A stretch of DNA of 64,000 nucleotides, taken from assembly GCA_020724585.1 (NCBI GenBank), contig DYGS01000001.1, forward strand, positions 2,893 through 66,892, in the 5' to 3' direction. This stretch comes from Candidatus Microgenomatus sp. (GTDB lineage Bacteria; Patescibacteriota; Microgenomatia; UBA8517). The stretch's first letter is position 1. Every line of letters begins with the position of its first letter. Below are positions 6,483 to 48,377 of the stretch, in pieces. The notes under the pieces were generated by a model that was not told the origin of the DNA, made no database searches, and saw only the letters and a list, made by a program, of their open reading frames with translations. Both the position numbers and the translations under genes were made by a program.

Positions 6483-6890
6483 TTATTTTAATCTTTTAAT
6501 TGTTATATCGTCCATGGGATAATCTTTTTTATCAGCCGTAACCAATGTTAGTGAATTAACTTTGCATGTTGCAGCAATCATACAATCAGACATCCATATT
6601 TTTTTTGATTTTCTATTAAAAAGTTTCCTGTATTTAGCGGCTTCCTCTGCTATAACCCTGTCAACAGATAAAGTTTCGAGATTATCAAGAAGCATTTTTA
6701 ATGATATTTCTTCATCTGCCTGCGCCCCCTCTAAAAATTCTGCCACAACAATTGAAGAAAAAAATAAAGTTTTTTGTTCGATAGCCTTTCTGACCCAGCC
6801 CGCATATGGCTCAATTCCCTTGAAAGCATATACCAAAACATTCGTATCAGCTAAATAGCTTACCATTGACTCCTTATCTTTCTGCTCCAC
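6483..6890 (-). CDS. vapC: PIN-domain toxin (VapC-like)
   Basis: MVSYLADTNVLVY PIN N-terminal motif and downstream acidic residues. The start may be the internal Met at 6866 (MVSYLADTN). Confidence 0.7.
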   Translation of the reverse strand: MEQKDKESMVSYLADTNVLVYAFKGIEPYAGWVRKAIEQKTLFFSSIVVAEFLEGAQADEEISLKMLLDNLETLSVDRVIAEEAAKYRKLFNRKSKKIWMSDCMIAATCKVNSLTLVTADKKDYPMDDITIKRLK

Positions 6891-7153
6891 CTATATATTT
6901 CCTCTTTTGAATTCCAATTAGGATGATTATTAATCTTAATTGATCCAACCACTCTATTCGCCAATTTCTTTAAATCTTCTTGCTCCTGTTTTTCTAAAAG
7001 AAGTCTTATTATCGCCGCTTTTCTCAAATATTCAGATAAGCTTTCGCCTCGTTGGCTTGCCATTTGTTCTACATGGTATTTAAGCTGATCGGTTAGGGTT
7101 ATTTGAGTTCGAACAGCTTTGTCATTTTTAGAAAGCATAGGTATTTGTATCAT
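6860..7153 (-). CDS. vapB: Ribbon-helix-helix antitoxin (VapB/CopG-like)
   Basis: Small protein directly upstream of, and overlapping, the PIN gene. EYLRKAAIIRLLLEKQ is RHH-like. Confidence 0.55.
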   Translation of the reverse strand: MIQIPMLSKNDKAVRTQITLTDQLKYHVEQMASQRGESLSEYLRKAAIIRLLLEKQEQEDLKKLANRVVGSIKINNHPNWNSKEEIYRWSRKIRSQW

Positions 7154-9470: not shown

Positions 9471-11573
9471 GTGAAGAAAAAAAATTATATTTTCAAATTT
9501 TTTGAAATTGTTGGCAGGCCATTTTATTTTCTACTGTCAGGAATTTTTATTGCTTTGATATTCACTTTATACATAATTGGCCATACTGTAACCAAAGCGG
9601 TCAAACTGATTACAAAGATAGAAATAAAAAAAAATAAAAAATATTTAATACTTTGTTTGCTTCTCTCGTTGGTTTTTGTTTTTTATTATTTAATTTTAAA
9701 AGATTTACCCTCCCCTAAAAAACTTACGAGTAGAAATATAGAACTTTCCACCAAAATATATGACAGAAATGGAATTCTTTTATATACAATATACAAAGAC
9801 AAAAACAGAACTCCTGTCAAACTTTCGCAGGTTCCAAAACATGTTCAACTTGCAACATTAGCTGCCGAGGATGCAGAATTTTACATGCATCCAGGATTTT
9901 CTATTCGAGGAATGCTTAGAGCTATCACTAAAAATTTAAAAGAAGGTAAACTTGAAGGCGGATCAACAATTACTCAGCAACTTGTCAAAAATGCTCTTTT
10001 GTCATCTGAGAAAACTTTTATTAGAAAAGCACGGGAACTGATTTTATCTGTGGGCGTTGAACTAACTTATGAAAAAGACCAGATCCTTGAAATGTATTTA
10101 AATGAGGTTAATTATGGAGGTACAGTCTATGGAATTGAAGAGGCCGCAAGACACTATTTTGGTAAAAATGTTGAAAACTTAACACTTTCCGAAAGTGCGA
10201 TGCTTGCGGGACTTCCTAAAAGTCCAACAAAATTCTCACCCTTTGGGGGTAATCCCGATCTTGCTTTTGCACGCCAAAGGGAAGTCTTATATTTGATGAA
10301 AGTTAATAAATTTATAACTGAAGAAGAAGAAAACAAAGCAATAAATCAGAGACTTTCATTTATCGCTAACAAACAAAATATTTTAGCTCCCCATTTTGTT
10401 ATGTATATCAAGGAAAAATTGGTAGACATGTACGGCGAAGAGATGGTTTTGACGGGTGGATTAAGCGTTACCACCTCACTTGATTTAAATATTCAACTAT
10501 TGGCTGAAGAGGCCGTTAAAGAGGAAATAGATAAACTCAAAAACCTAAATGTAGGAAATGGAGCAGTTGTTATATTAAACCCAAAAACATTTGAAATTCT
10601 AGCTATGGTTGGAAGTAAAGATTATTTTGATATTCAAAATGGAGGCAATGTTAATGTAACAGTTAGACCTCGTCAACCAGGATCTTCAATAAAAGTCATA
10701 AACTATGCTCAAGCACTCTCCGGTAATTATACTCTGGCAACAATAGTTGACGATACTCCGATTACATACATCATAAAGGGCCAGCCCCCATACTCGCCTA
10801 AAAATTACGATAATACTTACCGTGGGAAAATGACGGTCAGACAAGCCCTTGCCCAATCAAGAAATATTCCCGCTGTTAGAATTTTGGCATCTTACGGAGT
10901 TTCCGAAATGATTGATTTGGGGCAGAAAATGGGAATTACAACCTGGAATGACAGATCCAGATTTGGACTGTCGCTAACGCTTGGCGGAGGGGAAACCAAG
11001 CTATTGGATTTAGCTTCAGTATATGCAGTAATTGCCAATTACGGTAAAGGAAAGCAAATAAAAGACATTTTGGAAGTTAAAAATAATAACGGAAAGATCC
11101 TATATTCCAAAAATAATTTTGAGGAAAATGGAGAACAGGTTATAGACCCAAGAGTTTCATACTTATTGATTGATGTTTTGAAAGATAACATTGCCCGTTC
11201 CCCCGCTTTTGGCGCCAATTCAATGCTTGTGATTCCCAATCATCCTGAAGTAGCAGTAAAAACTGGTACGAGTAATAACTTAAAAGACAATTTAACAATT
11301 GGCTTTAGTCAAGATTTTGTCGTTGCTGTCTGGGTGGGAAACAATAACGGTTCACCAATGGCCAGAATCGCATCGGGCATAACGGGCGCCGCGCCTATTT
11401 GGAATAGAATTATGAAAAGTTTGCTTTTCGATAAAGAATCTGTTGAGTGGCCAACCCCCCAAGGCTTGGTTTATAAAGAGTGTTTTTCCAGAAAAGAATG
11501 GTTTTTAGAGGAAAAGCAATTAAGCTGTCCCAAGATTATCGAGCCCGCCGCGACTGATATCTTGATAGAGTAG
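9471..11573 (+). CDS. Class A penicillin-binding protein (second tandem paralog)
   Basis: GTG start. AEDAEFYMHPGFS, GGSTITQQL, GSSIKV and KTGTSNN motifs. Confidence 0.85.
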   Translation: MKKKNYIFKFFEIVGRPFYFLLSGIFIALIFTLYIIGHTVTKAVKLITKIEIKKNKKYLILCLLLSLVFVFYYLILKDLPSPKKLTSRNIELSTKIYDRNGILLYTIYKDKNRTPVKLSQVPKHVQLATLAAEDAEFYMHPGFSIRGMLRAITKNLKEGKLEGGSTITQQLVKNALLSSEKTFIRKARELILSVGVELTYEKDQILEMYLNEVNYGGTVYGIEEAARHYFGKNVENLTLSESAMLAGLPKSPTKFSPFGGNPDLAFARQREVLYLMKVNKFITEEEENKAINQRLSFIANKQNILAPHFVMYIKEKLVDMYGEEMVLTGGLSVTTSLDLNIQLLAEEAVKEEIDKLKNLNVGNGAVVILNPKTFEILAMVGSKDYFDIQNGGNVNVTVRPRQPGSSIKVINYAQALSGNYTLATIVDDTPITYIIKGQPPYSPKNYDNTYRGKMTVRQALAQSRNIPAVRILASYGVSEMIDLGQKMGITTWNDRSRFGLSLTLGGGETKLLDLASVYAVIANYGKGKQIKDILEVKNNNGKILYSKNNFEENGEQVIDPRVSYLLIDVLKDNIARSPAFGANSMLVIPNHPEVAVKTGTSNNLKDNLTIGFSQDFVVAVWVGNNNGSPMARIASGITGAAPIWNRIMKSLLFDKESVEWPTPQGLVYKECFSRKEWFLEEKQLSCPKIIEPAATDILIE

Positions 11574-12185
11574 GTAAAACGGAAGCATTAAAAGAGGAGA
11601 TATTAGCGATAAGACAAATGGCCCTATATATGGGACTGCACCAAAAACTATCGAGGCTAAAAGCGAAAATAAGCCAAAAACCACAGACCTTCCTAAAATT
11701 TTCCAAAAGCGGCCGGAAACCATAGCTTTGCTTGTCCTTAACGCTTCACCAATCTTTAGCCCCCTATCTAAAACCAGCCAGATAGCAAATGAGTACCAAA
11801 CGGCAAATATTATCCCGGGGATAATTAACAGTACTAAACCGAAAAATATTATTAAACCAACAGTCAACGAAATCAAGAAAAATTTAAACATATTTCTGAT
11901 TCCCGCAGTAAAAACACTCCTCACCTCTCCCCCTATATGCAAAAGAGAATAATACTCAATCGTATTCATCCATACACCCGCTATTACTGTTAATGTTATG
12001 AATAATAAATAAAAGGGATCATAAACAGGCTTTTCATAATAACTAAGGGTATAGCCAATAAGTGAAGCTATAATCGCTAAAACAGCCATTATTTTAACAA
12101 AAAAGACAAAGTTTTCTTTTTTGAAGTAAATTCTAAAAGCCTCTTTTATATATTCGGTTGGTGATTTTAGTGTTTGTTCCTGCAT
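11520..12185 (-). CDS. polytopic membrane protein (unknown function)
   Basis: Five to six predicted TM helices. Overlaps the PBP 3' end by about 54 nt, so the true start may lie downstream. Confidence 0.4.
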   Translation of the reverse strand: MQEQTLKSPTEYIKEAFRIYFKKENFVFFVKIMAVLAIIASLIGYTLSYYEKPVYDPFYLLFITLTVIAGVWMNTIEYYSLLHIGGEVRSVFTAGIRNMFKFFLISLTVGLIIFFGLVLLIIPGIIFAVWYSFAIWLVLDRGLKIGEALRTSKAMVSGRFWKILGRSVVFGLFSLLASIVFGAVPYIGPFVLSLISPLLMLPFYLLYQDISRGGLDNLGTA

Positions 12186-12223
12186 TCTTGTTTTTCTATT
12201 ATCTATTAACTTTTACTTATTCG

Positions 12224-13153
12224 CTACCTTGTATGTTCAGTATATAATAGTTTAGTTAATTTTGGAAATAATTCATCTGCTTCTTTCTCAACCACCCCAT
12301 CTGTCATAATAACAAGCACAAAAGGCCTACTGCTCATTACAACTCCCGCATCGTTTACACTATGCACCTCTCTACCATATTTATGAGCAAGTCTAATTTC
12401 AGACGGAATGCCCAAACGAAGCCATTTTTCAAAATTAGTATCTGTTAACGATTCCAAAAATTTATTTGTTAAATCATCGCTTAATAATTCTTTTTTATAT
12501 AATTTTTTGAAAAACAAGCCAATATCCTCGGGTGTTGTGATATTTTCTGATAACGATGTATTAATCATTCCTAAATCTAATATGGCCTTATTTATATTTT
12601 CTTTACCCAGCGTTTCAAGTATTTTAAGGTAAATATTGTTATCAGATTTTTTTCCCATCGCCAAAACATCAGGCCATTTTTTTTCATCCTGTATTGCAAG
12701 ATACATAACAGGCAGTTTAATCAAAGAAGCCGCTTGCATTTTTTCTTGATGATTTAGGCCATAATAGTAATCGCCGTTTAAGTCATAAATATAAAAAGCA
12801 TAAATTCCCGAGTAGCCATTTGTTGCATCCTTAAATAGTTTCTTTACATTCTCAATTTTTTCCAAATTTATAGACGAACCTTTATTGCCAACAACAATTA
12901 CATCTTCCTCAAAAGGGTTTAGCTTTGAAAAATCAGGAATCGAAATTTTTGGCAAATTTGGAAGTTTGAAGTTGCGAGCAGATAGAGCTAAGATTGTTGA
13001 GGTTCCAACTGTTAATAAAAGCATTACTAAAACAAAAAGTCTCTCATAAACTCCCCACGGTTTAATAATTTGCTTTTCTCGAGATAGATTTTCCCTAGCC
13101 TTCTTATTTTCAGGCTTCAAATCCCTAATCTCATTTTTTTCAAAAACTCCCAT
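12224..13153 (-). CDS. membrane-anchored class A beta-lactamase-like serine hydrolase
   Basis: N-terminal TM anchor, then SLIK (SxxK), KSDNN (SDN) and KYG (KTG-like) motifs in the correct order. Confidence 0.55.
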   Translation of the reverse strand: MGVFEKNEIRDLKPENKKARENLSREKQIIKPWGVYERLFVLVMLLLTVGTSTILALSARNFKLPNLPKISIPDFSKLNPFEEDVIVVGNKGSSINLEKIENVKKLFKDATNGYSGIYAFYIYDLNGDYYYGLNHQEKMQAASLIKLPVMYLAIQDEKKWPDVLAMGKKSDNNIYLKILETLGKENINKAILDLGMINTSLSENITTPEDIGLFFKKLYKKELLSDDLTNKFLESLTDTNFEKWLRLGIPSEIRLAHKYGREVHSVNDAGVVMSSRPFVLVIMTDGVVEKEADELFPKLTKLLYTEHTR

Positions 13154-13158
13154 GCTAA

Positions 13159-13192
13159 AATTCTACCATTTAATTCTTGACATTCACACACA
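13159..13192 (+). repeat. 34-bp direct repeat copy 1 (aattctaccatttaattcttgacattcacacaca) with TTGACA and (CA)4
   Basis: Exact match to 13856-13889. Together the two copies flank the BrnT/BrnA module. Confidence 0.85.
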
Positions 13193-13205
13193 AAACTTCA
13201 GTACA
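13177..13205 (+). promoter_or_regulatory. promoter-like element P1 (TTGACA -35, CA-repeat spacer, weak -10); no downstream + strand gene
   Basis: TTGACA at 13177-13182 followed by cacacaca. The best -10 candidate (tacaaa) needs a 19-nt spacer. Confidence 0.3.
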
Positions 13206-13230
13206 AAGAAGCAAATAAGGCAAATTAGAA

Positions 13231-13509
13231 TTACATTGCAAAATCATCTTGAAGTCCTTTAGAAATATATTGTTTCATTAAAGTTTGATATGGCATATCT
13301 TTTTTGTTAGCCATCATCTTTACTCTTGTCAATAAACTCTCGGTGATTCTTAAAGAGATTGGCTTTTTTGTCAACTGTAAATTGGGAAATATAGCATGTT
13401 TAGCTTTACTCCAATCAAAATAATCTGTAGAATCTGCTTTATCCCAAAAATCTCTTTCTTCATCCTCTGTTTTAAAATTAGGAATTTGTTTAAGTTTTTT
13501 TACTTTCAT
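13231..13509 (-). CDS. brnA: BrnA antitoxin (CopG/RHH family)
   Basis: FWDKADSTDYFDWSKAK...ISLRITESLL...YQTLMKQYI pattern. Overlaps the upstream BrnT gene. Confidence 0.7.
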   Translation of the reverse strand: MKVKKLKQIPNFKTEDEERDFWDKADSTDYFDWSKAKHAIFPNLQLTKKPISLRITESLLTRVKMMANKKDMPYQTLMKQYISKGLQDDFAM

Positions 13510-13795
13510 AGATCTTCCTCTCTTTCTTGTTCATTCTTCTCGCAGATATTATTCTAATTTTTTCATTTCTAATTGTAAAAAAGATACTGATCAGGTCACT
13601 GTGTGCTGACTTACCAATGATCTGGAATCTATCTTCAAATTTAGAATGCTCCAAATCTTCAGCCAAGAGCGACTCATTATCTAAAAAAACACTTTCTGCT
13701 TCTTCATTTGAAATTCCGTGCTTTTTAAAATTTTTATCTTTATTTCCTTTATCCCAATCAAAAACAATTGGTTCAAGAATAATAATATTATTCAT
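13490..13795 (-). CDS. brnT: BrnT toxin (DUF497 ribonuclease toxin)
   Basis: FDWDKGNKDKNFKKHGISNEEAESVF and RIISARRMNKKER match the BrnT/DUF497 consensus. Confidence 0.75.
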   Translation of the reverse strand: MNNIIILEPIVFDWDKGNKDKNFKKHGISNEEAESVFLDNESLLAEDLEHSKFEDRFQIIGKSAHSDLISIFFTIRNEKIRIISARRMNKKERKIYESKKT

Positions 13796-13855
13796 AATCA
13801 GTATATACTACATCTATACAAATTGTCAAGATAACTTATGCCAAACCCCTTAAAT

Positions 13856-13897
13856 TAATTCTACCATTTAATTCTTGACATTCACACACACACACAC
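13856..13897 (+). repeat. 34-bp direct repeat copy 2, here extended to (CA)7
   Basis: Same 34-mer as 13159-13192. The CA tract is longer (13883-13897). Confidence 0.85.
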
Positions 13898-13903
13898 TAA
13901 ACT
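13875..13903 (+). promoter_or_regulatory. sigma70-type promoter P2: TTGACA, 17-nt CA-repeat spacer, TAAACT
   Basis: TTGACA at 13875-13880 and TAAACT at 13898-13903. The ATG at 13914 gives a leaderless or very short-leader mRNA. Confidence 0.55.
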
Positions 13904-13913
13904 CGTAGTTAAT

Positions 13914-14330
13914 ATGGCGGAGGAAGTAAGTAACGTTAATCAAGATTTAATAAGCGAAGCACTTAGTGACTTTCGCGAATCAACCGGCCAAAAACCCCAA
14001 AAAGAAGTTGTTTCTGTTGATAAAATTCTTGAAACCGCCAAACAAGTTGCAGTAGACTTTAAAAACAAAGCCTTTGAAACAGTTAATAAATTTCCAAACA
14101 AACTTGATTTTCTTCAGGCATCATTTATGGGCGCGGTTTCGGTTCTACCAGATTTTTATATATATGCCTTAAACTCACCAAATTTTCCTGCTAATGAGCC
14201 TGTTTCAAAGATGTTAGGTACTGTTATGTTTGGTGTCGTGTCGGTTATTTCAAAAGCAGGAACAGTTGAATTATTTAAAGCATGGCATGAAAAAAGCTTT
14301 CCAAAAGCAGAGGTACAGGCAAAACAATGA
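13914..14330 (+). CDS. hypothetical protein (start trimmed to MAEEV)
   Basis: The track ORF starts at 13875, but MTFTHTHT is just translation of the CA repeat. The Met at 13914 follows promoter P2. Confidence 0.45.
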   Translation: MAEEVSNVNQDLISEALSDFRESTGQKPQKEVVSVDKILETAKQVAVDFKNKAFETVNKFPNKLDFLQASFMGAVSVLPDFYIYALNSPNFPANEPVSKMLGTVMFGVVSVISKAGTVELFKAWHEKSFPKAEVQAKQ

Positions 14331-14689
14331 CTACATTTACAACTTTTTTAAATAAAATAAATCAATTTTCAGAACTTTTAGGTTTATCTCAAGAGGACAT
14401 GACAAAAATAAAATCGGATCTACTTGAGGGCGTTTTTTATGATTTAACTTCTAATCTTGCTAGTGATCCTAACCAAAAAACAAATTTGGAAAATCTATCC
14501 AAAATTAAACCAGTTACACAAGATGATTTTGACAAATTTATGTCTGAAGCCTCTACTTTATTAAAAAATGAAGGTTACGATATTAACGAAGCTTTTGATA
14601 AATCTGCAAAAACAGTACTTGAGGCGTTTATTGCAAAACTTGGTAACAGTCTCCCGCAGGATAAAATTGAGGCTCTAAATAAAATTTAA
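14327..14689 (+). CDS. hypothetical protein
   Basis: Start overlaps the previous stop (ATGA), suggesting an operon. No motif recognised. Confidence 0.4.
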   Translation: MTTFTTFLNKINQFSELLGLSQEDMTKIKSDLLEGVFYDLTSNLASDPNQKTNLENLSKIKPVTQDDFDKFMSEASTLLKNEGYDINEAFDKSAKTVLEAFIAKLGNSLPQDKIEALNKI

Positions 14690-14702
14690 CAAGAAGAATA
14701 AA

Positions 14703-15722
14703 TTACTTTCTTCTCTTTTCCCAAACTTCCTTGTTAACTATATTGGGGGGCATTTCAGAAGAATTTACTTTTAAGATGGCAGAAACTGCCAATTCTCCCA
14801 TTTTTTCTCTAGCTTCAACTGTTGCTGAGGCTATGTGTGGTGTTAATATTACATTTTCCATTCCTATTAGTTCTGGATCAATGTTTGGCTCATTATCATA
14901 TACATCAAGTGCAGCTCCTGATAAATGTCCACTTCTTAGAGCTTCAACAAGGTCATGCTCATTAACAACAGGCCCTCTTGCTGTATTAATTAAATAGCTT
15001 CCCTTTTTCATTTTTGAGAATGCTATAGCATTCATCATGTGCCTTGTTTCATCTGTTAACGGCACATGAAGGGTAACTATGTCTGATGTTTGTAAAAGTT
15101 TTTCTAATTCCTCATATCTAACACCTAATTCTTGTTCCACTTTTTCATCTCTTGTTCTTTTATTATAAATAACATTCATACCATAGCCTCCAGCTCTTTT
15201 AGCAACCATTGTTCCAATTCCTCCAAGACCAACTATTCCCAAGGTTTTACCTCTAAGTGATGTGCCTAAAAATATATCAGGCTCCCAGCCTTTATATGCT
15301 CCTCTTTTGGTGGCTTCATCTGCCTCAACTACCCTTCGGCAAAGGCTCAAGGCAAGGGCCCAAGTGTGTTCGGCAACTGCTTCATCAACTTCTTCGCATG
15401 GAGTATTACAAACTACTATTCCCCTCTCAGTTGCATCTTTGATGTTGATATTATCAAAACCAACTGCATAGTTACTAATTAATTTAAGTTGGGGGCCAAT
15501 AGCATCCATTACCTCTCCATCAATTTTGTCAGTTAAAAGAGATAGAATGTAGGAACTATCTTTACTTCCCTCTAAAAACTCATCGGATGTTAAAGGTCTA
15601 TTAAATTCTGATACTTTAACATCAAAACCTTTATCATCTAGGTCTTTTAAATGAGTCGTGGGAATTTGTCTTGATACAAAAACTTTCATTTGATTAAGGT
15701 TATCATAATTTATAACAAGCAC
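14703..15722 (-). CDS. D-isomer-specific 2-hydroxyacid dehydrogenase (glycerate/hydroxypyruvate or phosphoglycerate dehydrogenase-like)
   Basis: NAD-binding GIVGLGGIGTMVAKRA and a catalytic His/Glu/Arg pattern (LTPHIASAT). Confidence 0.8.
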   Translation of the reverse strand: MLVINYDNLNQMKVFVSRQIPTTHLKDLDDKGFDVKVSEFNRPLTSDEFLEGSKDSSYILSLLTDKIDGEVMDAIGPQLKLISNYAVGFDNINIKDATERGIVVCNTPCEEVDEAVAEHTWALALSLCRRVVEADEATKRGAYKGWEPDIFLGTSLRGKTLGIVGLGGIGTMVAKRAGGYGMNVIYNKRTRDEKVEQELGVRYEELEKLLQTSDIVTLHVPLTDETRHMMNAIAFSKMKKGSYLINTARGPVVNEHDLVEALRSGHLSGAALDVYDNEPNIDPELIGMENVILTPHIASATVEAREKMGELAVSAILKVNSSEMPPNIVNKEVWEKRRK

Positions 15723-15739
15723 AAAACAAAATGACTATA

Positions 15740-16735
15740 TTACATCTCATCCACTTTTACACCAGAGGATTTAAATCTTTCAACCCAAATATCAATATCG
15801 TTTTCCTTAAGAAGTCCTCTTTGCGCCCCCGTATAACCTATAACTGATGCGGAGTTAACACTTCCCCACACTAAACACTCGTCAAGAGACTTGCCTTTGA
15901 TTTGTGCAGACAAAAAGCCGGACCCAAAAGCGTCTCCCGCCCCCGTTCTTTCAAAAGCATCAACAGGCAAAGGTGGGCAATGAAAAAAATTGGCCCCATC
16001 AAAAGCATAAGCTCCAACTCCACCATCGGTAATTACTGAAACTTTGGGCCCCAAAGCAGAAAGGGCCAGCAATAGCTCACGGCTAACAAAGTCTTTAGCA
16101 GCAAAACCTGTTAATTTTTCTGCCTCCTGTTTATTAACAAAAATAGTATGCGCAAGCTTCATTACTTTATCAACAGTTTCAGATTTTTCTTTTAATTGCC
16201 AACTGCCTGGATTAAAAACAAGTTTGATTTCTGGATTTTTAAGGAGCCATTCAACCATATGATTATAAAACGGCATATAAGATTCTCCCATTGAAGTCAA
16301 ATAGACATACGACACTCTAGGAAGTTGAACTGGAAATTCATAACTTCTGGGGGCATGATAGGTAAAAATTGTTCTTTCACCTGAATAAGTTAAAACTACA
16401 TTAAAATTCGAGTTTGTTGCGGGCTGTTGAATAACATAAGTTAAATCGACCTCCTCCTTTTTCAAAGACTCAACTATCTGATTTCCAATGCTATCATCCC
16501 CAAGCGTCAACACTAAACCACATTTTATCCCCAATCTTGATGCGCCAACCGCGTTATTGGCTGCATTTCCGCCAACCGAAAAATCTAGACTTTTAACGGG
16601 AATTTTGTCGGCATATGAAAAGGCAATTAAACACTCTTTTGTGTTAATGTTGCAAAGTGACTCGGATTCAGATGGATTAATAAAAGCATCCATATTGCAA
16701 TCCCCAATGGATAGTAAGTCTAAGTTCATGGCCAT
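15740..16735 (-). CDS. PfkB-family carbohydrate kinase (ribokinase superfamily; possible phosphofructokinase)
   Basis: N-terminal GG motif region and C-terminal TGAGDAF anion-hole motif. Confidence 0.7.
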   Translation of the reverse strand: MAMNLDLLSIGDCNMDAFINPSESESLCNINTKECLIAFSYADKIPVKSLDFSVGGNAANNAVGASRLGIKCGLVLTLGDDSIGNQIVESLKKEEVDLTYVIQQPATNSNFNVVLTYSGERTIFTYHAPRSYEFPVQLPRVSYVYLTSMGESYMPFYNHMVEWLLKNPEIKLVFNPGSWQLKEKSETVDKVMKLAHTIFVNKQEAEKLTGFAAKDFVSRELLLALSALGPKVSVITDGGVGAYAFDGANFFHCPPLPVDAFERTGAGDAFGSGFLSAQIKGKSLDECLVWGSVNSASVIGYTGAQRGLLKENDIDIWVERFKSSGVKVDEM

Positions 16736-17721
16736 TACAACTCTCCTTCCCTAGCTAGTGATGTTTTTTTAAGTACTTCTAAAAACTTTTCTTGAGCAAT
16801 TATTACATTTTCTTTTTTTCCTGACCAAATACTCATAGCATCTTGCTGAAGCGCCCTACTGAAAGAAAATGATAAATCCCATGGACCAAAATGTTTTTCT
16901 TTGTTTAATTTAACAATCTCATTTAAGTTAAATATTGCCTGATCGGGAGCCTGCCCTCCTGAAAGAAATACAATTCCAAAAACTTCTTGGGGTACTGAAT
17001 TTTGAAAGGATCGAAGCGTTGAATTTGAAACTTCTAAGGGCATAACGGAAACACCGCTGTCTTTTCCAGGTAAGACCATGCTTGCTTTAAGTATCAAGTT
17101 GGTTACATCAACATTTTTTTGTTTCAATATTTCAAATAATTTTTTAAGTACCTTTGTTGTGACTTCTTCACATCTTGTATTTGTATGTTTTCCATCATAC
17201 AAAACTTCCGGCTCGACAATTGGCAGCATTTCTAAGTCTTGTACAATTTTTGCATAATCAGCCATTTTACCTAAAGTGTCGTCTAAAAATTCATCTGTTG
17301 GATATAAATCAGAAATATTTATTACTCCCCTCCATTTGGTAAATTCTGCTCCTAGTTTTTTGTATTCTTCAAGTCTTTCTTTTAAACCATTAATTCCTTT
17401 TGTAGTTTTTTGATCAGTATCTTTAAAACTTTCCAGTCCCTGATCGACTTTAATGCCAACAACAATACCTTTATTTTTTAAAATTTCGGCAAATGGCTCG
17501 CCCTGAGCTTTTTGTCGGAGGGTTTCGTCAAACAAAATTACTCCACTTATATATTTTTCAATATCCGGGGTCGTAAACAACATTTCTCTGTATTCTTTAT
17601 TCAATTCAGGAGTAGAAACTAAACCAAGATCAGAAAATCTTTTGGTAATAGATGGCGTTGACTCATCTGCAGCCAAAATTCCCTTGTAATGTACTAATAG
17701 TTTTCGGACAGTATCTTTCAT
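16735..17721 (-). CDS. fba: Fructose-bisphosphate aldolase, class I (glycolytic type)
   Basis: KGILAADESTPSITKRF motif of the class I (Schiff-base) aldolase family. Confidence 0.75.
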   Translation of the reverse strand: MKDTVRKLLVHYKGILAADESTPSITKRFSDLGLVSTPELNKEYREMLFTTPDIEKYISGVILFDETLRQKAQGEPFAEILKNKGIVVGIKVDQGLESFKDTDQKTTKGINGLKERLEEYKKLGAEFTKWRGVINISDLYPTDEFLDDTLGKMADYAKIVQDLEMLPIVEPEVLYDGKHTNTRCEEVTTKVLKKLFEILKQKNVDVTNLILKASMVLPGKDSGVSVMPLEVSNSTLRSFQNSVPQEVFGIVFLSGGQAPDQAIFNLNEIVKLNKEKHFGPWDLSFSFSRALQQDAMSIWSGKKENVIIAQEKFLEVLKKTSLAREGEL

Positions 17722-17738
17722 ACATTATAAGATTACAC

Positions 17739-18734
17739 TCATGCGTTCTTTTTGGCAATTAACTTTTTAATGGATTTAATAATATCTTCTTTTGCTAAAC
17801 CATATTCTTTAAAAAGCTCATCTGGTTTTCCTGATTGGCCAAATCTGTCTTGGACCCCAAGCATCTCCATATGCACAGGAAAATTTTTAGAAAGTGTTTG
17901 GGATACAACTGATCCTAGTCCTCCTATTACTTGATGTTCCTCAATTGTCATAATGGCATTAGTAAGTTTCGCATATCTGATAACCACTTCTTCATCGAGG
18001 GGCTTTATTGTGTGCATATTAATAACTATCGTTTCTATTCCATTTTTTTCAAGCTCTTTATAAGCTAACAGTGCCTGATAAACCATTAATCCATAGGCAA
18101 TAATTGCCACCTCGGGCTTTTTACTTTCAGTTAAAATATTTGCTTTCCCGATTTTAAATGGCGATTTTTCAGTCGTATAAACAGGACTTTCAATTCTTGG
18201 AAGTCTCATGTAGAAGGGCTTATCAATTTTGGCCATTTCTAGCGTTGCCTTTTTTGCTTCATTGTAATCACTTGGAGCAACTACATTCATACTTGGTATA
18301 ACTTGGGCAAGAGCAATATCTTCTAAACCCTGATGTGTTACGCCGTAATGACCAATATTAAGTCCGCTTTGTGCCCCAATTATTTTTACAGGATAACCAT
18401 CGATTCCAATTGTTGTTCTAATTTGTTCCCAATTCCTGCCTGGAGAAAATATCGCATAGGATGTTGCAAACGGAATCTTGCCGAAATTTGCAAGGCCTGA
18501 AGCAATTGTAACTAGGTTTTGTTCTGCAACTCCAACTTCAATAAATCTTTCAGGAAATTTATCTGCAAAGTAGTTAACTTTTGTAGATTCTTTTAAATCT
18601 GCAGTTAATGCAACTATTCTTTCATCTTGTTCACCTGCCTCCAATAACCCATGTCCAAAACCATCCCGCATGAGTTTCATTTCAATCTTTTTAGTAAATA
18701 TGTCAGGATTTAGATTTAATTTAGCATTTAGCAT
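17739..18734 (-). CDS. Transketolase, C-terminal subunit (split transketolase)
   Basis: Pyrimidine-binding and C-terminal domain motifs (EQNLVTIASGLA, GAQSGLNIGHYGVTHQ). Confidence 0.8.
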   Translation of the reverse strand: MLNAKLNLNPDIFTKKIEMKLMRDGFGHGLLEAGEQDERIVALTADLKESTKVNYFADKFPERFIEVGVAEQNLVTIASGLANFGKIPFATSYAIFSPGRNWEQIRTTIGIDGYPVKIIGAQSGLNIGHYGVTHQGLEDIALAQVIPSMNVVAPSDYNEAKKATLEMAKIDKPFYMRLPRIESPVYTTEKSPFKIGKANILTESKKPEVAIIAYGLMVYQALLAYKELEKNGIETIVINMHTIKPLDEEVVIRYAKLTNAIMTIEEHQVIGGLGSVVSQTLSKNFPVHMEMLGVQDRFGQSGKPDELFKEYGLAKEDIIKSIKKLIAKKNA

Positions 18735-18744
18735 TTGTAATTTG

Positions 18745-19593
18745 TCACTCCCCGTAAGGGGTTACCTTTCCTCCCATTGTTCTAATTTCCATAATTGCTT
18801 TTTTGGCTTCAATGTCATTTGGCGCTTTAGCATGCCAATTGGGATTATTTTCCATGAAATCAACTCCCATTCCCGGGATAGTATGAGCAATTATTACAGT
18901 CGGATTTTCAAATATGCTTCTGGCTTTACTGCAGGCTGAAACAATTTCATCAAAATTATGTCCGTCTATATCAATCACTGACCAGCCAAATGACTTATAC
19001 TTATCCAACAAGGGCTCGAGCGGCATAATATCTTCTGTATGCCCATCAATTTGAATATTATTTCTATCAACAATCAAGGTTAAATTTGAGAGATTGTTTT
19101 TACCTGCAAACATAACAGCTTCCCAATGGTTTCCCTCATTATGTTCCCCATCGGAACAAATAACGAATGTTCTAAATCTTTTTTTATCCATCCTTGCCCC
19201 ATATGCAACCCCGCAAGCCTGTGATAATCCCGACCCAAGCGGGCCTGATGTTGTTTCAAGACTTTTTAAAAATCTCTTATCAGGATGTCCCTGTAAAATA
19301 CTTCCAAATTTACCAATTTTAAAAAGCTCTTTGTGCTCAAAATAACCTCTATGGGCCATAACTGCATATCTTGCGGGACAAATATGACCATTTGACAATA
19401 CTAACCTGTCTCTATCTTCCCAGTCAGGTTTTTTAGGGTCATGAAGTAAAATCACATAGTAAAGTGTTACTAAAACATCAACCATACCAAGTGAACCCGC
19501 AGGGTGCCCATAACCTGCTTTTAAAATCATTTCAATGATATCTTTTCTAACTTCCTTTGATATTTCTTGTAATTCTTCTGTTGTATACTTCAT
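18745..19593 (-). CDS. Transketolase, N-terminal (TPP-binding) subunit
   Basis: GHPAGSLGMVD, LSNGH, GDGEHNEG and GSLGQG-like thiamine-PP binding motifs. Confidence 0.8.
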   Translation of the reverse strand: MKYTTEELQEISKEVRKDIIEMILKAGYGHPAGSLGMVDVLVTLYYVILLHDPKKPDWEDRDRLVLSNGHICPARYAVMAHRGYFEHKELFKIGKFGSILQGHPDKRFLKSLETTSGPLGSGLSQACGVAYGARMDKKRFRTFVICSDGEHNEGNHWEAVMFAGKNNLSNLTLIVDRNNIQIDGHTEDIMPLEPLLDKYKSFGWSVIDIDGHNFDEIVSACSKARSIFENPTVIIAHTIPGMGVDFMENNPNWHAKAPNDIEAKKAIMEIRTMGGKVTPYGE

Positions 19594-20240
19594 TTTGTGA
19601 ATGCCGCGTCGTACTTATCCATTTGACCATCAACATTATGGTTTCTTTCCACAATCTGATTTTCAAATTTTTTTATAATAGGAAGGACATCATCTACTCT
19701 ATTTGCAATTTCAAAAACTGAAAGTTCCTTATTGTCTATGTTCATATTCTTTCTAAAAACATCAATTATTTCTGCCCAATAACTACCAAAAAGGATAAAT
19801 GGTTTGTGGTGCCCATAATATAGTTTTGCCAAAACCCAAGCAGTTCCAAATTCTGATATTGTTCCAGTTCCTCCTTTAAACATGATAAATAAGTCACCAT
19901 ATTCCATAAGTTTAAACATTCTTTCGATGTAATTTGTCGTCACCACTTCCTCGTCGGGAACATTACCAACATATTTTCCCTCAAAGCCAGGTGCGTTTTG
20001 CGGATCGAAAGTAATCGTTATGGTTTTCCCTCCGCCACTTCTAGCCCCATTTGTTGCAGCTTCCATTACACCCGGTCCACCGCCATCAACTACGACATAA
20101 CCTTCTTTTGCTAAAATTTCTGCAACTTTAAAGGCTTGTGTATAAACTTCATCGCTTTCAGCAATATCTGCGTCTCCAAAAAAGGCAATATTTTTAATTG
20201 CCTTACCGCTATTATTTGCGTATTTTTTTGATTCTTCCAT
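19590..20240 (-). CDS. LOG-family protein (TIGR00730 Rossmann-fold, cytokinin riboside 5'-monophosphate phosphoribohydrolase-like)
   Basis: GGGPGVMEA and PGGTGTISE motifs. Confidence 0.8.
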   Translation of the reverse strand: MEESKKYANNSGKAIKNIAFFGDADIAESDEVYTQAFKVAEILAKEGYVVVDGGGPGVMEAATNGARSGGGKTITITFDPQNAPGFEGKYVGNVPDEEVVTTNYIERMFKLMEYGDLFIMFKGGTGTISEFGTAWVLAKLYYGHHKPFILFGSYWAEIIDVFRKNMNIDNKELSVFEIANRVDDVLPIIKKFENQIVERNHNVDGQMDKYDAAFTK

Positions 20241-20271
20241 AATTTATTTAACCAATAAAAATTAATATTTC

Positions 20272-22555: not shown

Positions 22556-22585
22556 TACATTTAATCATAGTTTATTCTTACTAAG

Positions 22586-22616
22586 TTGACAATCACACAC
22601 ACACACTGGCTAGAAT
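22586..22616 (+). promoter_or_regulatory. sigma70 consensus promoter P3: TTGACA, 19-nt spacer containing (CA)6.5, TAGAAT
   Basis: Perfect -35 and a near-consensus -10. The ATG at 22624 lies 7 nt after the -10, implying a leaderless transcript. Confidence 0.6.
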
Positions 22617-22623
22617 ACGCTGT

Positions 22624-22848
22624 ATGGCTACAATTACAATTGTGAGAGATGGTAAACCAAATTTAACTTTGGATATTCCCGATGAAATCGTAAGTGTTGT
22701 TGGAGCAGAAGTGTTATTGATGGGTTTAGAGGCCGAAGAAACCAGTAATAGATGGGGAGGTATTGGTGAAGAAGAATTGGAAAAAATAAAAGAACTTGGT
22801 AGGGCATTAATAGGTAAACATGTGTACGGAGAAAGAGAAAGACTTTAA
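22624..22848 (+). CDS. hypothetical small acidic protein
   Basis: 74-aa ORF directly downstream of P3. Confidence 0.45.
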   Translation: MATITIVRDGKPNLTLDIPDEIVSVVGAEVLLMGLEAEETSNRWGGIGEEELEKIKELGRALIGKHVYGERERL

Positions 22849-23231
22849 TTATTAGCTTCTAATTCCTTTATTTCTTTGTCAAAACTTAAAACTTTATATT
22901 TGTTAGCATTGGCTGAAGAAAGCAGATAGCTATCTACAAAATGTAATTTATTTCTGTAATTAGTCCACATTCCCAAAAGCCCTTTTCTGTCCTCCACTAT
23001 TAGCCATTTTTGGGATAATAGAACTTCCATACATGACGCAATTTCATTAAGAGATTTTTTATAAAACGATTCTAGTACAAAACATGTTTCCGCCACAACA
23101 ACCACTTTGATTAGTAACTTTAACTCACCCGCTTCAGCTTTTTTGAATATATCAACAGATTTTTTATAAAGTATTTCACTATCTCCAACCAGATACCTAA
23201 GTATTATATTTGTGTCTATTATATTAATCAT
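22845..23231 (-). CDS. vapC: PIN-domain toxin (VapC-like), start trimmed to MINIIDTNIIL
   Basis: PIN N-terminal motif IIDTNIILRYL. The upstream antitoxin overlaps by 8 nt (ATGATTAA). Confidence 0.7.
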   Translation of the reverse strand: MINIIDTNIILRYLVGDSEILYKKSVDIFKKAEAGELKLLIKVVVVAETCFVLESFYKKSLNEIASCMEVLLSQKWLIVEDRKGLLGMWTNYRNKLHFVDSYLLSSANANKYKVLSFDKEIKELEANN

Positions 23232-23469
23232 TTCTAGCCCAATTTTTAGAAAAACTATCACGAGCCTTACGAAGCTGTTTATCAGATAACACAGTATCGG
23301 ATTTAAGTGATCCTGCCAGAGACCAAAAATCTTGTTTTGGAGAAACAATTATTGTGTTCCCTACTTTTTGAGCAATAGCCTTGGTGGCACCATGAACACC
23401 TAAATCCTGAAGCATAAGCCTAGGAATTGAAATTTGCCCCTGACTTGTAATTGAAACTATTTGTTGCAT
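23224..23469 (-). CDS. vapB: AbrB/MazE/SpoVT-family antitoxin (VapB-like)
   Basis: ITSQGQISIPRLMLQDLGV swapped-hairpin motif. Confidence 0.65.
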   Translation of the reverse strand: MQQIVSITSQGQISIPRLMLQDLGVHGATKAIAQKVGNTIIVSPKQDFWSLAGSLKSDTVLSDKQLRKARDSFSKNWARND

Positions 23470-23524
23470 TACATTATTATGGTATATCTACATTATTTTG
23501 TCAAGTCACATTATTTACTTGAAG

Positions 23525-23553
23525 TTGACAATCACACACACACTGGCTAGAAT
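23525..23553 (+). promoter_or_regulatory. sigma70 consensus promoter P4: TTGACA, 17-nt spacer containing (CA)5.5, TAGAAT
   Basis: Near-identical to P3 (agttgacaatcacaca...ctggctagaat) but one CA unit shorter. ATG at 23560. Confidence 0.65.
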
Positions 23554-23559
23554 GCAGGT

Positions 23560-23778
23560 ATGGATAAAGAAAAATCGGGTCTTTCATGGTTAATAAGGGG
23601 GGAGAAATGTGAAGATGATTCATTTTTTTGTAAAAAAAACTGTGGGGCAACAGGTAAGCAGACTATAGAATATTTTAAAATATTCGGGGTTGTTATTAAA
23701 TCTCGTGTAAAGAGCTTTGAAATTTCTGGTGGCAATCCTGATTGTAAACACACTTGGCAGGATCATGGCTTAATTTAG
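23560..23778 (+). CDS. hypothetical small Cys-containing protein
   Basis: 72-aa ORF downstream of P4. Four Cys residues and no signal peptide. Confidence 0.4.
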   Translation: MDKEKSGLSWLIRGEKCEDDSFFCKKNCGATGKQTIEYFKIFGVVIKSRVKSFEISGGNPDCKHTWQDHGLI

Positions 23779-23799
23779 ATGATTATTTAGACTCACCAC

Positions 23800-24249
23800 T
23801 TAATTATTTGCTTCCAGCTTTTCAATTTCATCAAGTCTTCTTTCATGCCTAGCATTTTCTTCATATTTTGTTTCTAAAAAAGCAATTAACATTCCTTTGG
23901 CTTCTTTTTCCGTTGTGTAATCTGATGCAATAACTAATATGTTCATATCATCATCTCTTCTTCCTGCTTTTACTTGTAATACTGACTTTCCAATTGCAGC
24001 TCTAATACCATCAAATTTATTTGCAACAACCTCAACTCCTACTCCACTTCCACAAAGTAGTACCCCTCTGCTATGGGGTCTTTTAGCAACCATTGAGGAA
24101 ACCATTTCTGCGTATTTTGAATAATCATCATCGGGGTCAAAATGCAAAGCACCTAAATCCTCAAAATCATAATTCATGTCAAACAACCATGTGGCTATTT
24201 TTTCTTTTAACTCATATCCCCTATGATCGCTACCGATAAATATCTTCAT
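23800..24249 (-). CDS. rpiB: Ribose-5-phosphate isomerase B
   Basis: MKIFIGSDHRGYELKEKI and CGSGVG motifs (RpiB/LacAB family). Confidence 0.85.
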   Translation of the reverse strand: MKIFIGSDHRGYELKEKIATWLFDMNYDFEDLGALHFDPDDDYSKYAEMVSSMVAKRPHSRGVLLCGSGVGVEVVANKFDGIRAAIGKSVLQVKAGRRDDDMNILVIASDYTTEKEAKGMLIAFLETKYEENARHERRLDEIEKLEANN

Positions 24250-48376: not shown

Positions 48377-48377
48377 C

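What the first reader, a model, noticed from the sequence alone, without database searches (positions are those of the whole stretch)
13159..13897. BrnT/BrnA toxin-antitoxin module bracketed by 34-bp direct repeats that carry a promoter; the VapBC module at 22845-23469 is bracketed by the other promoter-repeat pair
The exact 34-mer aattctaccatttaattcttgacattcacacaca occurs at 13159-13192 and at 13856-13889. Between the copies lie only the BrnA (13231-13509) and BrnT (13490-13795) genes. The left copy has no + strand gene to drive. The right copy serves as promoter for the 13914 gene. Similarly, the P3 and P4 promoter repeats flank the VapC/AbrB-antitoxin pair. This looks like TA cassettes inserted by recombination within or between duplicated promoter-bearing repeat units, or like repeat-mediated cassette gain and loss. 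That would make these TA modules mobile or exchangeable cassettes rather than fixed chromosomal genes.
Basis: seen in the sequence. Interest (0 to 1): 0.6.

Follow-up and report, generated by a model that had tools for sequence, protein, structure and literature searches.

The report
Toxin-antitoxin cassettes flanked by duplicated promoters
In a tiny-genome groundwater bacterium (Woesebacteria), two small toxin-antitoxin gene pairs sit inside housekeeping gene rows between duplicated copies of the local promoter region, and related genomes show such pairs being gained, moved, swapped or lost at these spots, an ordinary kind of gene mobility seen here in an unusual, enzyme-less-looking form.

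Summary
An exact 34-mer (13159-13192 and 13857-13890; the finding's right copy is one base off) brackets a BrnT/BrnA operon. A second promoter pair (22583-22616, 23522-23553) differs by one CA unit and brackets a PIN/antitoxin pair plus a 74-aa gene. The organism is a Woesebacterium (CPR).

About 30 related contigs show three things:
- **BrnTA is a discrete cassette.** It runs from its own -35 box to the BrnA stop. It sits at a different gene junction in five related contigs and is less diverged at synonymous sites than its neighbours.
- **The pgk|rpiB junction varies.** One relative has a single promoter and no TA there. Others carry the same or a different VapBC. One is bracketed by 35-nt repeats made from the rpiB 3' end.
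- **The repeats are target-derived.** The 34-mer is the core of a divergent promoter. At locus 2 the whole intergenic module is duplicated.

The promoter (TTGACA-(CA)n-TAnAAT-ATG) is a conserved Woesebacterial class driving apparently leaderless small genes, not a cassette-specific site. TA mobility and repeat-associated gain/loss are supported. The recombination mechanism is only inferred. I found no recombinase, no attC-like structure and no CA-length variation. The rest of the genome could not be scanned.

The parts
13159..13192 (+). Left copy of the 34-mer (P1). The + strand has a -35 TTGACA (13177-13182) and (CA)4 but no -10. The - strand reads TGGTAGAAT (13168->13160), an extended -10 lying 6 nt before the ATG of the serine-hydrolase gene (13153).
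   Evidence: Exact repeat. No -10 found. The - strand promoter reading is my inference from the sequence.
13193..13230 (.). 38 nt of unknown origin between the left 34-mer and the BrnA stop codon. Part of the inserted segment, but not part of the conserved cassette.
   Evidence: Alignment A3. No match in L241 or L242.
13231..13509 (-). BrnA-type (CopG/RHH) antitoxin, 92 aa.
   Evidence: PF12441 2.1e-31. NF047399 BrnA 3.9e-10, below its cut-off. 85-89% aa identity to L241-L244.
13490..13795 (-). BrnT toxin, 101 aa. It is the first gene of the operon and overlaps BrnA by 20 nt.
   Evidence: PF04365 1.3e-25. Homologues at 79-83% identity.
13800..13829 (-). The BrnTA operon's own promoter (TTGACA-18-TATACT, 11/12). 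The conserved cassette begins at this -35 box.
   Evidence: Conserved in L241 and L242.
13830..13856 (.). 27 nt of unknown origin between the cassette's -35 box and the right 34-mer.
13857..13890 (+). Right copy of the 34-mer. It forms the upstream part of promoter P2.
13875..13903 (+). Promoter P2: TTGACA, a 17-nt spacer containing (CA)7, then TAAACT. The ATG of the 138-aa gene follows 10 nt later.
   Evidence: A homologous promoter with homologous genes occurs in L206.
13914..14689 (+). Two-gene operon, 138 aa and 120 aa, with no family match. It runs antisense to the surrounding housekeeping row and is part of the lineage-specific insert 13154-14702.
   Evidence: Absent from about 22 relatives in which HacidDH abuts the serine hydrolase. 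Distant homologues in L206.
22556..22874 (+). Intergenic module U1. It comprises a leader next to the pgk ATG; the pgk promoter on the - strand (22592->22564); P3 (TTGACA at 22586, (CA)6, 19-nt spacer, TAGAAT 22611-22616); orf74 (22624-22848); and an rpiB-like tail (22845-22874) that supplies the last codons of VapC.
22845..23237 (-). PIN-domain VapC toxin. Its C-terminus ...KEIKELEANN* copies the RpiB C-terminus.
   Evidence: PF01850 7.5e-10. Tail comparison.
23224..23469 (-). 81-aa antitoxin, probably with a MazE/AbrB-type fold. Its own promoter lies at 23504->23476.
   Evidence: PF04014 E 0.039, sub-threshold. 62% identical to the L206 partner. Promoter.
23470..23829 (+). Intergenic module U2. 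It comprises a leader next to the VapB ATG; P4 (TTGACA at 23525, (CA)5, 17-nt spacer, TAGAAT 23548-23553); orf72 (23560-23778); and the true rpiB 3' end (23800-23829).

Best explanation
Both repeat pairs are duplicated pieces of the target intergenic region. The duplication arose when small, self-contained type II toxin-antitoxin cassettes were inserted into conserved housekeeping gene rows of a Woesebacterium.

**Locus 1.** A roughly 0.6-kb BrnTA cassette (own promoter, BrnT, BrnA) plus 27 and 38 nt of foreign flank landed inside a 62-bp back-to-back promoter region. That region lay between the serine-hydrolase gene and a 138-aa/120-aa operon. The 34 bp that became duplicated carry two things: the extended -10 for the leftward gene, and the -35 box plus part of the (CA)n spacer for the rightward operon. 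Each neighbour therefore kept what it needs. The left copy is dead as a rightward promoter.

**Locus 2.** The whole intergenic module stands on both sides of the VapBC body. The module consists of a leader, the (CA)n promoter, an antisense small ORF and the last codons of rpiB.

**Gain and loss.** I think the most likely route for gain is recombination of incoming or excised DNA that carries a copy of the junction (single-crossover, Campbell-type, or double-crossover through flanking homology). Loss would go by recombination between the two flanking copies, which leaves a single copy as seen in L233.

**Shown:** the repeats; the insertions relative to relatives; the cassette boundaries; a different location in relatives; presence, absence and replacement at one junction; and the target-derived nature of the repeats.

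**Inferred:** the recombination route; the - strand promoter for the hydrolase gene; apparently leaderless starts; and the direction of each event (gain versus loss).
For: **The repeats**
- Exact 34-mer pair, never seen in 100 shuffles.

**Locus 1 is an insertion**
- About 22 related species have HacidDH directly followed by the serine hydrolase, with nothing in between (also L240). So 13154-14702 is an insertion.

**BrnTA is a mobile cassette**
- The window aligns with L241 and L242 only from TTGACAAT, the operon's -35 box, to the BrnA stop. Mean column identity is 84%.
- In L241-L245 the cassette sits one junction away, directly after PfkB (shown for L241-L244); HacidDH lies beyond it in L242.
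- Third-position identity is 0.61-0.66 for BrnT/BrnA against 0.44-0.46 for PfkB. Four-fold-site identity is about 0.6 against 0.22-0.30.

**Locus 2 varies among relatives**
- L233 (RpiB 84% aa) has pgk, one promoter, one small ORF and rpiB, with no TA.
- L206 has the same VapBC (67%/62% aa by tblastn) at the same junction.
- L175 has a different VapBC (no MazE/AbrB-type antitoxin signal; no window-VapBC hit) there.

**The repeats are target-derived**
- Alignment A2 and the repeat finder show conserved ends (leader plus promoter; tail) around unrelated middles.
- The VapC tails in the window and in L206 mimic RpiB C-termini.
- L175 carries 35-nt, 97% identical direct repeats that encode IEKIEANN*. 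It also carries an RpiB C-terminal remnant (ARHKRRHSDIEKIEANN*) downstream of VapC. These bracket the promoter, the small ORF and VapBC.

**Promoters**
- Promoter calls.

**Not an assembly error at locus 2**
- Four assemblies of this strain are identical there.
Against: - No empty site could be found for locus 1. The 138-aa protein has no close homologue and the nearest genome is only 71% identical in the hydrolase.
- The BrnTA cassette has no flanking repeats in L241 or L242. Repeats are therefore not an obligatory footprint of its movement.
- 34 bp is near the lower limit for RecA-type recombination. A Campbell-type event also needs a donor that already carries the same 34-mer, so the first insertion remains unexplained.
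- The VapBC insertion is shared with a distant relative at ordinary divergence. The near-identity of P3 and P4 therefore needs selection or gene conversion, not recency.
- The promoter with its (CA)n spacer is itself strongly conserved: L233's copy matches P4 exactly, including (CA)5, over the 32-nt core from AAG to TAGAAT.
- The rest of the roughly 0.7-Mb genome was not searched for more copies.
Confidence: 0.55

Rival explanations
1. The repeats are simply separate members of one strongly conserved promoter class. Selection on promoter and regulator-binding sequence keeps them alike. Their position on either side of TA modules says nothing about insertion.
For: - The same architecture (TTGACA, WT(CA)n, TGSC, TAnAAT, then ATG 6-10 nt later) recurs in at least 12 other Woesebacteria/Microgenomates contigs.
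- L233's copy is identical to P4 from AAG to TAGAAT, although the flanks have diverged.
- The P3/P4 identity covers essentially only the promoter.
- Several class members have no TA nearby (L017 twice, L020, L233).
Against: - The P1/P2 identity includes 18 nt upstream of the -35 box. Those 18 nt are not part of the class consensus, and P1 lacks a -10, so it is not a working member.
- At locus 2 the duplication also includes the leader and an rpiB-derived coding tail fused to VapC.
- L175 has rpiB-tail repeats that are not promoters at all.
Confidence: 0.15
2. The duplications are local events, such as unequal crossing-over, replication slippage or gene conversion between paralogous promoters. 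They happened independently of the arrival of the TA modules, and the TA modules are long-resident chromosomal genes.
For: - VapBC at pgk|rpiB is shared with the distant L206 at the same divergence as its neighbours.
- P3' and P4' have diverged in L206 but are alike in the window. This fits later homogenisation in the window lineage.
- In L241-L245 the BrnTA position is stable.
Against: - BrnTA is at a different junction in the window than in its five closest relatives, and it has lower synonymous divergence than PfkB.
- The 34-mer copies abut foreign sequence with sharp edges on the inner sides.
- Different VapBC families occupy the same junction in different genomes.
Confidence: 0.15
3. A dedicated site-specific system moves the cassettes, and the repeats are its att-like sites. 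The recombinase would be encoded elsewhere and of unknown type, or the mechanism would be a staggered cut with fill-in that duplicates about 30-35 bp.
For: - The direct repeats are of similar length in independent cases: 34 nt in the window and 35 nt in L175.
- Insertion at a gene's 3' end, with the gene end reconstituted, is typical of integrase-borne islands (established knowledge).
- TA modules lie next to this promoter class at about 7 of 10 assessable independent sites.
Against: - No recombinase or transposase family hit lies within about 6 kb of either locus, nor among ten further window proteins.
- The repeats have no hairpin or inverted-repeat structure.
- The repeat sequences differ between sites (promoter core versus rpiB tail).
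- There are no repeats around BrnTA in L241 or L242.
Confidence: 0.1
4. Assembly artefact. The BrnTA segment was joined into this place through a 34-nt repeat, and it really lies elsewhere or in another strain.
For: - Logan contigs of the same strain stop exactly at the edges of the 34-mer (L002, L005, L006).
- The exact BrnT and BrnA proteins are on record only for the JGI and NCBI contigs, not for Logan.
Against: - A 34-nt repeat longer than k = 31 forces exactly those breaks even if the assembly is right.
- Both ends branch, as a true repeat requires.
- Two long assemblies (644 kb and 744.5 kb) carry BrnT as well as both flanking proteins on record.
- Locus 2 is confirmed base for base in four assemblies.
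Confidence: 0.05

Closest known systems
Toxin-antitoxin gene cassettes of sedentary chromosomal integrons (for example the Vibrio superintegron; PMC13108822)
   Same: Both are small TA modules with their own promoters, often in the opposite orientation to their neighbours. Both are bracketed by repeats and interspersed among other small cassettes. Both are thought to be exchangeable.
   Different: - There is no attC. The repeats do not fold and have no inverted-repeat cores.
- There is no IntI, attI or Pc nearby.
- The repeats are copies of the local target (promoter core, gene 3' end), not cassette-borne sites.
- The cassettes are scattered inside glycolysis/pentose-phosphate and cell-wall gene rows, not in an array.
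Integrative islands that insert into the 3' end of a gene and duplicate it as attL/attR (established knowledge of tyrosine-recombinase islands)
   Same: Both have target-derived direct repeats of about 30-35 nt flanking the insert. At pgk|rpiB the duplicated piece is the 3' end of rpiB, so the gene end is reconstituted. A single-copy state exists in a relative.
   Different: The inserts are only 0.6-1.2 kb and encode no recombinase. At locus 1 the duplicated target is a promoter core rather than a gene end. VapC has actually fused to the duplicated rpiB tail.
Simple-sequence-repeat promoters that phase-vary, for example the (TA)n tract in the overlapping divergent hifA/hifB promoters of Haemophilus influenzae (reviewed in PMC2651432)
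   Same: Both have a dinucleotide tract between the -35 and -10 boxes of a promoter that is part of a divergent pair. Spacer lengths differ in 2-nt steps (15, 17, 19) between paralogous and orthologous copies.
   Different: The tracts are short, at 4-9 units. CA counts are identical in four assemblies of this strain. No evidence of switching was found.
BrnT/BrnA and VapBC type II toxin-antitoxin systems
   Same: BrnT and PIN domains score above the Pfam cut-offs. Each is a two-gene overlapping operon with its own promoter. Leptospira plasmid genes that align to the module are annotated BrnA/BrnT.
   Different: Nothing is unusual in the proteins themselves, except the rpiB-derived C-terminal tail on VapC. 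The VapB DNA-binding domain is only sub-threshold.

Membership tests
BrnT/BrnA type II toxin-antitoxin | Toxin belongs to the BrnT family. | tested here: met
   PF04365 1.3e-25, 89.9 bits against a cut-off of 34.5.
BrnT/BrnA type II toxin-antitoxin | Adjacent RHH/CopG-type BrnA antitoxin, co-transcribed with the toxin gene first. | tested here: met
   PF12441 CopG_antitoxin 108.9 bits against a cut-off of 28. The BrnA-specific models are below their cut-offs: PF14384 17 bits (cut-off 26), NF047399 39.7 bits (cut-off 60). BrnT lies upstream and overlaps BrnA by 20 nt.
BrnT/BrnA type II toxin-antitoxin | RNase toxicity neutralised by the antitoxin. | not testable with these tools
   Needs expression experiments.
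VapBC type II toxin-antitoxin | PIN-domain toxin. | tested here: met
   PF01850 39.9 bits against a cut-off of 23.6.
VapBC type II toxin-antitoxin | Upstream overlapping antitoxin with a DNA-binding domain (AbrB/MazE, RHH and similar). | tested here: inconclusive
   The gene order and a 14-nt overlap are present. The domain is only sub-threshold: PF04014 E 0.039 over the whole profile. There is no NCBIfam hit, and PDB hits to 'addiction module antidote' have E 0.15-0.3.
Integron gene cassette | attC site: imperfect inverted repeats that fold as a single-strand hairpin at the cassette boundary. | tested here: not met
   The 34-mer (both strands) and the P4 unit have a minimum free energy of 0 kcal/mol; the L175 repeat reaches only -0.8, no better than shuffles. 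No inverted repeats lie at the boundaries.
Integron gene cassette | Integron integrase with attI and Pc adjacent to the array. | tested here: not met
   No recombinase family appears among the called genes within about 6 kb of either locus, nor among ten other window proteins. The rest of the genome was not seen.
Integrase-borne integrative island (attL/attR) | Target-derived direct repeats flanking the insert, and a single copy at the empty site. | tested here: met
   34-nt exact repeats at locus 1. A duplicated module at locus 2, with a single copy in L233. 35-nt rpiB-tail repeats in L175.
Integrase-borne integrative island (attL/attR) | Recombinase encoded in the element. | tested here: not met
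   The inserts contain only the TA genes and small ORFs.
IS or transposon insertion | Terminal inverted repeats, a transposase and a short target-site duplication. | tested here: not met
   There are no terminal inverted repeats and no transposase. The duplication is 34 nt.
SSR-driven phase-variable promoter | Simple-sequence tract between the -35 and -10 boxes, so that unit changes alter the spacer length. | tested here: met
   (CA)5-7 lies inside the spacers of P2, P3 and P4. Spacers of 15, 17 and 19 nt occur across the class.
SSR-driven phase-variable promoter | Repeat number varies within a strain or population. | tested here: not met
   CA counts at P3 and P4 are identical in JGI 3300029893 and in Logan SRR5011275, SRR5011273 and SRR28264341. 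P2 is identical in two Logan samples. This is consensus level only; read-level variation was not testable.

The most novel reading that the evidence does not exclude
Woesebacteria, and perhaps other CPR bacteria, may have a recombinase-independent cassette economy. In it, a conserved (CA)n-spacer leaderless promoter and short gene-end 'tails' would act as portable homology handles. These handles would let toxin-antitoxin modules and antisense small ORFs be swapped in and out of housekeeping operons by uptake of foreign DNA and homologous recombination. The (CA)n tract would additionally set promoter strength in 2-nt steps. The association of TA modules with this promoter class (about 7 of 10 assessable sites) would then be mechanistic rather than coincidental.
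Probability: 0.15. Interest if true: 0.75.

Novelty: new variant of a known kind. Interest (0 to 1): 0.45.

Why it matters
CPR bacteria have tiny, streamlined genomes and few recognisable mobile elements, so how they gain and lose accessory genes is poorly known. This window, with its relatives, gives a concrete, base-level picture. Discrete TA cassettes and antisense small genes occupy a few permissive junctions inside conserved operons. They carry target-derived direct repeats and show presence, absence and replacement polymorphism, yet no recombinase is in sight.

It also exposes a conserved promoter class with a (CA)n spacer and a start codon 6-10 nt after the -10 box. That class could be used to annotate apparently leaderless small genes in these genomes.

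If only the ordinary reading holds, the result is a tidy example of TA mobility and of a promoter duplication that keeps both neighbours expressed.

Tried and rejected
- **Metagenome scan for the promoter motif.** The scan did reveal the promoter class in other contigs.
- **Homologue search with the 138-aa protein.** It found only itself, so no empty site for locus 1.
- **The closest hydrolase relatives (L239, L240).** They have a 227-aa gene or nothing at the junction, and are too distant for nucleotide comparison.
- **Viral contigs and plasmids.** Viral contigs held no close BrnT relative and no 34-mer. Plasmids gave only distant Leptospira BrnTA. No vector was identified.
- **Rfam.** No RNA family in 12000-25000.
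- **Terminator scan.** None found.
- **A BrnA 3' end copying the HacidDH 3' end, by analogy with VapC/rpiB.** It does not.
- **A possible extension of the left repeat.** AAACT after an 8-nt gap would make P1 a spacer-deleted full copy. I judged this too short to claim.
- **Similarity of the first codons of pgk and VapB (31 nt, 74%).** I judged it likely chance, because the VapB N-terminus is conserved in L206's VapB.
- **CA-length variation.** None in four assemblies. Contig L238 ends inside the P3 tract, but that sample is fragmentary.
Full report
**1. The observation**

The 34-mer AATTCTACCATTTAATTCTTGACATTCACACACA is present exactly twice, at 13159-13192 and 13857-13890. It occurs nowhere else in the window even with three mismatches, and never in 100 shuffles. 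The finding's right copy is one base low. Identity ends abruptly on both sides.

Between the copies lie a BrnA-type antitoxin (13231-13509, -) and a BrnT toxin (13490-13795, -). Pfam gives 2e-31 for PF12441 and 1e-25 for PF04365. The BrnA-specific models are sub-threshold.

The second pair is 22583-22616 and 23522-23553. These copies are identical except that the first has (CA)6 and the second (CA)5. Their interval holds three genes: orf74 on the + strand, a PIN VapC and an 81-aa antitoxin. The antitoxin's MazE/AbrB-type domain is only sub-threshold. The four sites are the only (CA)>=4 tracts in the window and the only matches to TTGACAWTCACACACA.

**2. Promoter anatomy**

| Promoter | Architecture | ATG after -10 | Called by the scan? 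|
|---|---|---|---|
| P2 | TTGACA-17-TAAACT | 10 nt | yes |
| P4 | TTGACA-17-TAGAAT | 6 nt | yes |
| P3 | same boxes as P4, 19-nt spacer | 7 nt | no, outside the 16-18 nt range |
| P1 | -35 box only | none | no |

Each TA operon has its own near-consensus promoter on the - strand: 13829->13800 and 23504->23476, both 11/12. The pgk gene has one at 22592->22564.

On the - strand the 34-mer reads TGGTAGAAT (13168->13160). This is an extended -10 lying 6 nt before the ATG of the serine-hydrolase gene at 13153. I infer that it is that gene's promoter, because the -10-to-ATG distance matches the other promoters here. On this reading the 34-mer is the core of a back-to-back divergent promoter.

**3. 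Source and synteny**

The window comes from JGI metagenome contig Ga0246236_1000003 (644 kb). The same proteins are also on record from an NCBI contig of 744.5 kb and from Logan assemblies. The hydrolase's best homologues are Woesebacteria, and the nearest is 71% identical.

In about 22 related species the 2-hydroxyacid dehydrogenase gene is followed directly by the hydrolase gene. L240 shows the same arrangement, and L239 has a 227-aa gene in between. So 13154-14702 is lineage-specific. It comprises the TA plus the 138-aa and 120-aa genes on the opposite strand.

L206, a distant relative, has distant homologues of these two genes next to the dehydrogenase gene (E 3e-9 and 1e-15). They lie behind the same type of promoter.

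**4. BrnTA is a discrete, relocated cassette**

The closest BrnT homologues (79-83% identity) come from five Logan contigs. In them BrnT-BrnA directly follows PfkB (shown for L241-L244), with HacidDH beyond the cassette in L242. That is one junction away from its place in the window.

Nucleotide alignment shows homology from the operon's -35 box (TTGACAAT...) to the BrnA stop, and none outside. The cassette is less diverged than the adjacent PfkB:

| Measure | BrnT/BrnA | PfkB |
|---|---|---|
| Third-position identity | 0.61-0.66 | 0.44-0.46 |
| Four-fold-site identity | about 0.6 | 0.22-0.30 |

They point to more recent shared ancestry of the cassette, that is, transfer or relocation. In L241 and L242 the cassette has no flanking repeats. 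Other BrnTA copies lie at still other junctions in L017, L029 and L120.

**5. Locus 2**

L233 (RpiB 84% identical) has pgk, 30 bp, one promoter, one unrelated 71-aa ORF and rpiB. Its promoter is AAGTTGACAATC(AC)nTGGCTAGAAT with (CA)5. This is the single-copy, TA-free state.

L206 has the same VapBC (67%/62% aa by tblastn) at the same junction, with small ORFs on both sides. Its divergence is similar to that of its neighbours, and its VapC appears frameshifted. L175 has a different VapBC (no MazE/AbrB-type antitoxin signal) at this junction.

Alignment of the two window modules with L233 shows conserved ends and unrelated middles. The conserved ends are the leader, the promoter and a TTAATTATTNGCTTC... 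tail. The tail supplies the last codons of both rpiB and VapC:

| Genome | VapC C-terminus | RpiB C-terminus |
|---|---|---|
| Window | ...KEIKELEANN* | ...DEIEKLEANN* |
| L206 | ...EKRSSEKIEVNN* | ...EKRLEEIERIEANN* |

In L175, 35-nt direct repeats (97% identical, encoding IEKIEANN*) bracket the promoter, the small ORF and VapBC. An RpiB C-terminal remnant also lies downstream of VapC.

So insertions at this junction duplicate the target, including the rpiB 3' end. The window's VapBC insertion is probably old. L233 is either ancestral or a deletion product.

**6. The promoter is a class**

The motif scan found at least 12 further contigs from Woesebacteria or Microgenomates with the same architecture: TTGACA, WT(CA)n, usually CTGSC, TAnAAT, then ATG 6-10 nt later. 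Spacers are 15, 17 or 19 nt.

The promoters drive diverse small proteins, some of them conserved between genomes. TA genes are the immediate neighbours at about 7 of 10 assessable independent sites:
- With a TA neighbour: both window loci, L029/L120, L168, L175/L192, L229 and L155.
- Without a TA neighbour: L017 (two sites), L020 and L233.

Other TA modules in the window lack such promoters and lack flanking repeats. These are PIN/antitoxin at 6483-7153, HEPN at 5966-6475 and BrnT at 30636-30956.

CA counts are identical in four assemblies of this strain. There is therefore no sign of fast phase variation.

**7. Mechanism**

- **Shown:** target-derived duplication around inserted TA cassettes; cassette relocation; and presence, absence and replacement at one junction.
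- **Inferred, about 0.4 of my belief:** gain by homologous recombination of DNA that carries a copy of the junction, and loss by recombination between the flanking copies.
- **Alternatives:** a staggered break with fill-in or an unknown site-specific enzyme; or a local duplication unrelated to TA arrival.

No recombinase, transposase, terminal inverted repeat or hairpin-forming site was found. No viral or plasmid carrier was found either. The first insertion at locus 1 must have been illegitimate, because the 27-nt and 38-nt inner flanks match nothing available.

**8. Caveats**

- The rest of the genome was not searched.
- Logan contigs break exactly at the 34-mer edges, as a repeat longer than k = 31 requires. 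However, the exact BrnT and BrnA proteins are not on record for those samples. Whether this reflects a filled/empty polymorphism or a gap in the index cannot be told.
- Apparently leaderless starts and the hydrolase promoter are readings of sequence, not data.

Noticed in passing
window 13875-13903, 22586-22616, 23525-23553; also L017 (9924-, 1717-), L020 9893-, L029 10961-, L120 1895-, L138 2027-, L168 42+, L175 2303-, L206 104+, L229 1227+, L233 516+: A conserved promoter class in Woesebacteria/Microgenomates. It consists of TTGACA, a spacer made largely of (CA)4-9 and often ending CTGSC, TAnAAT, and an ATG 6-10 nt later, which looks leaderless. Spacers come in 15, 17 and 19 nt. It drives diverse small ORFs, usually antisense to housekeeping operons.
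   Followed up: partly
window 22845-22874 versus 23800-23829; L206 10211-10250 versus 11049-11090; L175 2010-2044 and 3204-3238: The C-terminal codons of VapC copy the C-terminus of RpiB (...LEANN*). L175 carries two 35-nt rpiB-tail remnants, plus a longer RpiB C-terminal pseudo-fragment downstream of its VapC.
   Followed up: yes
window 63435-63493, 63875-63905, 41829-41860, 21190-21215, 55190-55221, 61084-61151, 52505-52542: Short arrays of 7-nt tandem repeats (TAGTACA-like, GAGGAAA-like, ATTTGTA) in intergenic regions. Several lie next to genes for 23S-rRNA-intervening-sequence / four-helix-bundle proteins: 61211-61573 has a PF05635 hit, 63512-63886 is similar in sequence, and L241 has one inserted in the same operon.
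   Followed up: no
window 30417-30956 and 31048-31120: A second BrnT-family toxin (30636-30956, PF04365 1.8e-21) with a small partner ORF. It lies next to tRNA-Asn and has neither flanking direct repeats nor a (CA)n promoter.
   Followed up: partly
window 5966-7153: A further defence/TA cluster: a HEPN_RnaseLS-like 169-aa protein, a PIN protein (135 aa) and a 97-aa antitoxin. It is divergent from the first of two tandem class A PBP genes.
   Followed up: no
L206 10211-10586: The VapC orthologue in this distant relative is split into two overlapping ORFs, an apparent frameshift. This suggests decay of the toxin, or a sequencing error.
   Followed up: no
L002 1-35, L005 1-53, L006 1-53 (Logan SRR5011275 and SRR5011273): Contigs of the same strain end exactly one k-mer inside each edge of the 34-mer. 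The exact BrnT and BrnA proteins are not on record for these samples, although both flanking genes are. This may be a filled/empty polymorphism or a gap in the index.
   Followed up: partly
L239 2120-2716 and 3777-4460; L240 20-644; L017 3777-4025; L242 1500-1664: Other junctions of the same conserved gene row (PfkB|HacidDH, HacidDH|hydrolase, upstream of HacidDH) hold different accessory genes in different relatives. These include a Fic/Doc pair, AbrB-like antitoxins and genes of unknown function. A few permissive junctions seem to collect the accessory genes.
   Followed up: partly
window 47368-49819: A run of eight small genes (94-125 aa), each with a hydrophobic segment, followed by an 827-aa gene. 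It looks like a pilin-like or secretion-related cluster. Not examined.
   Followed up: no
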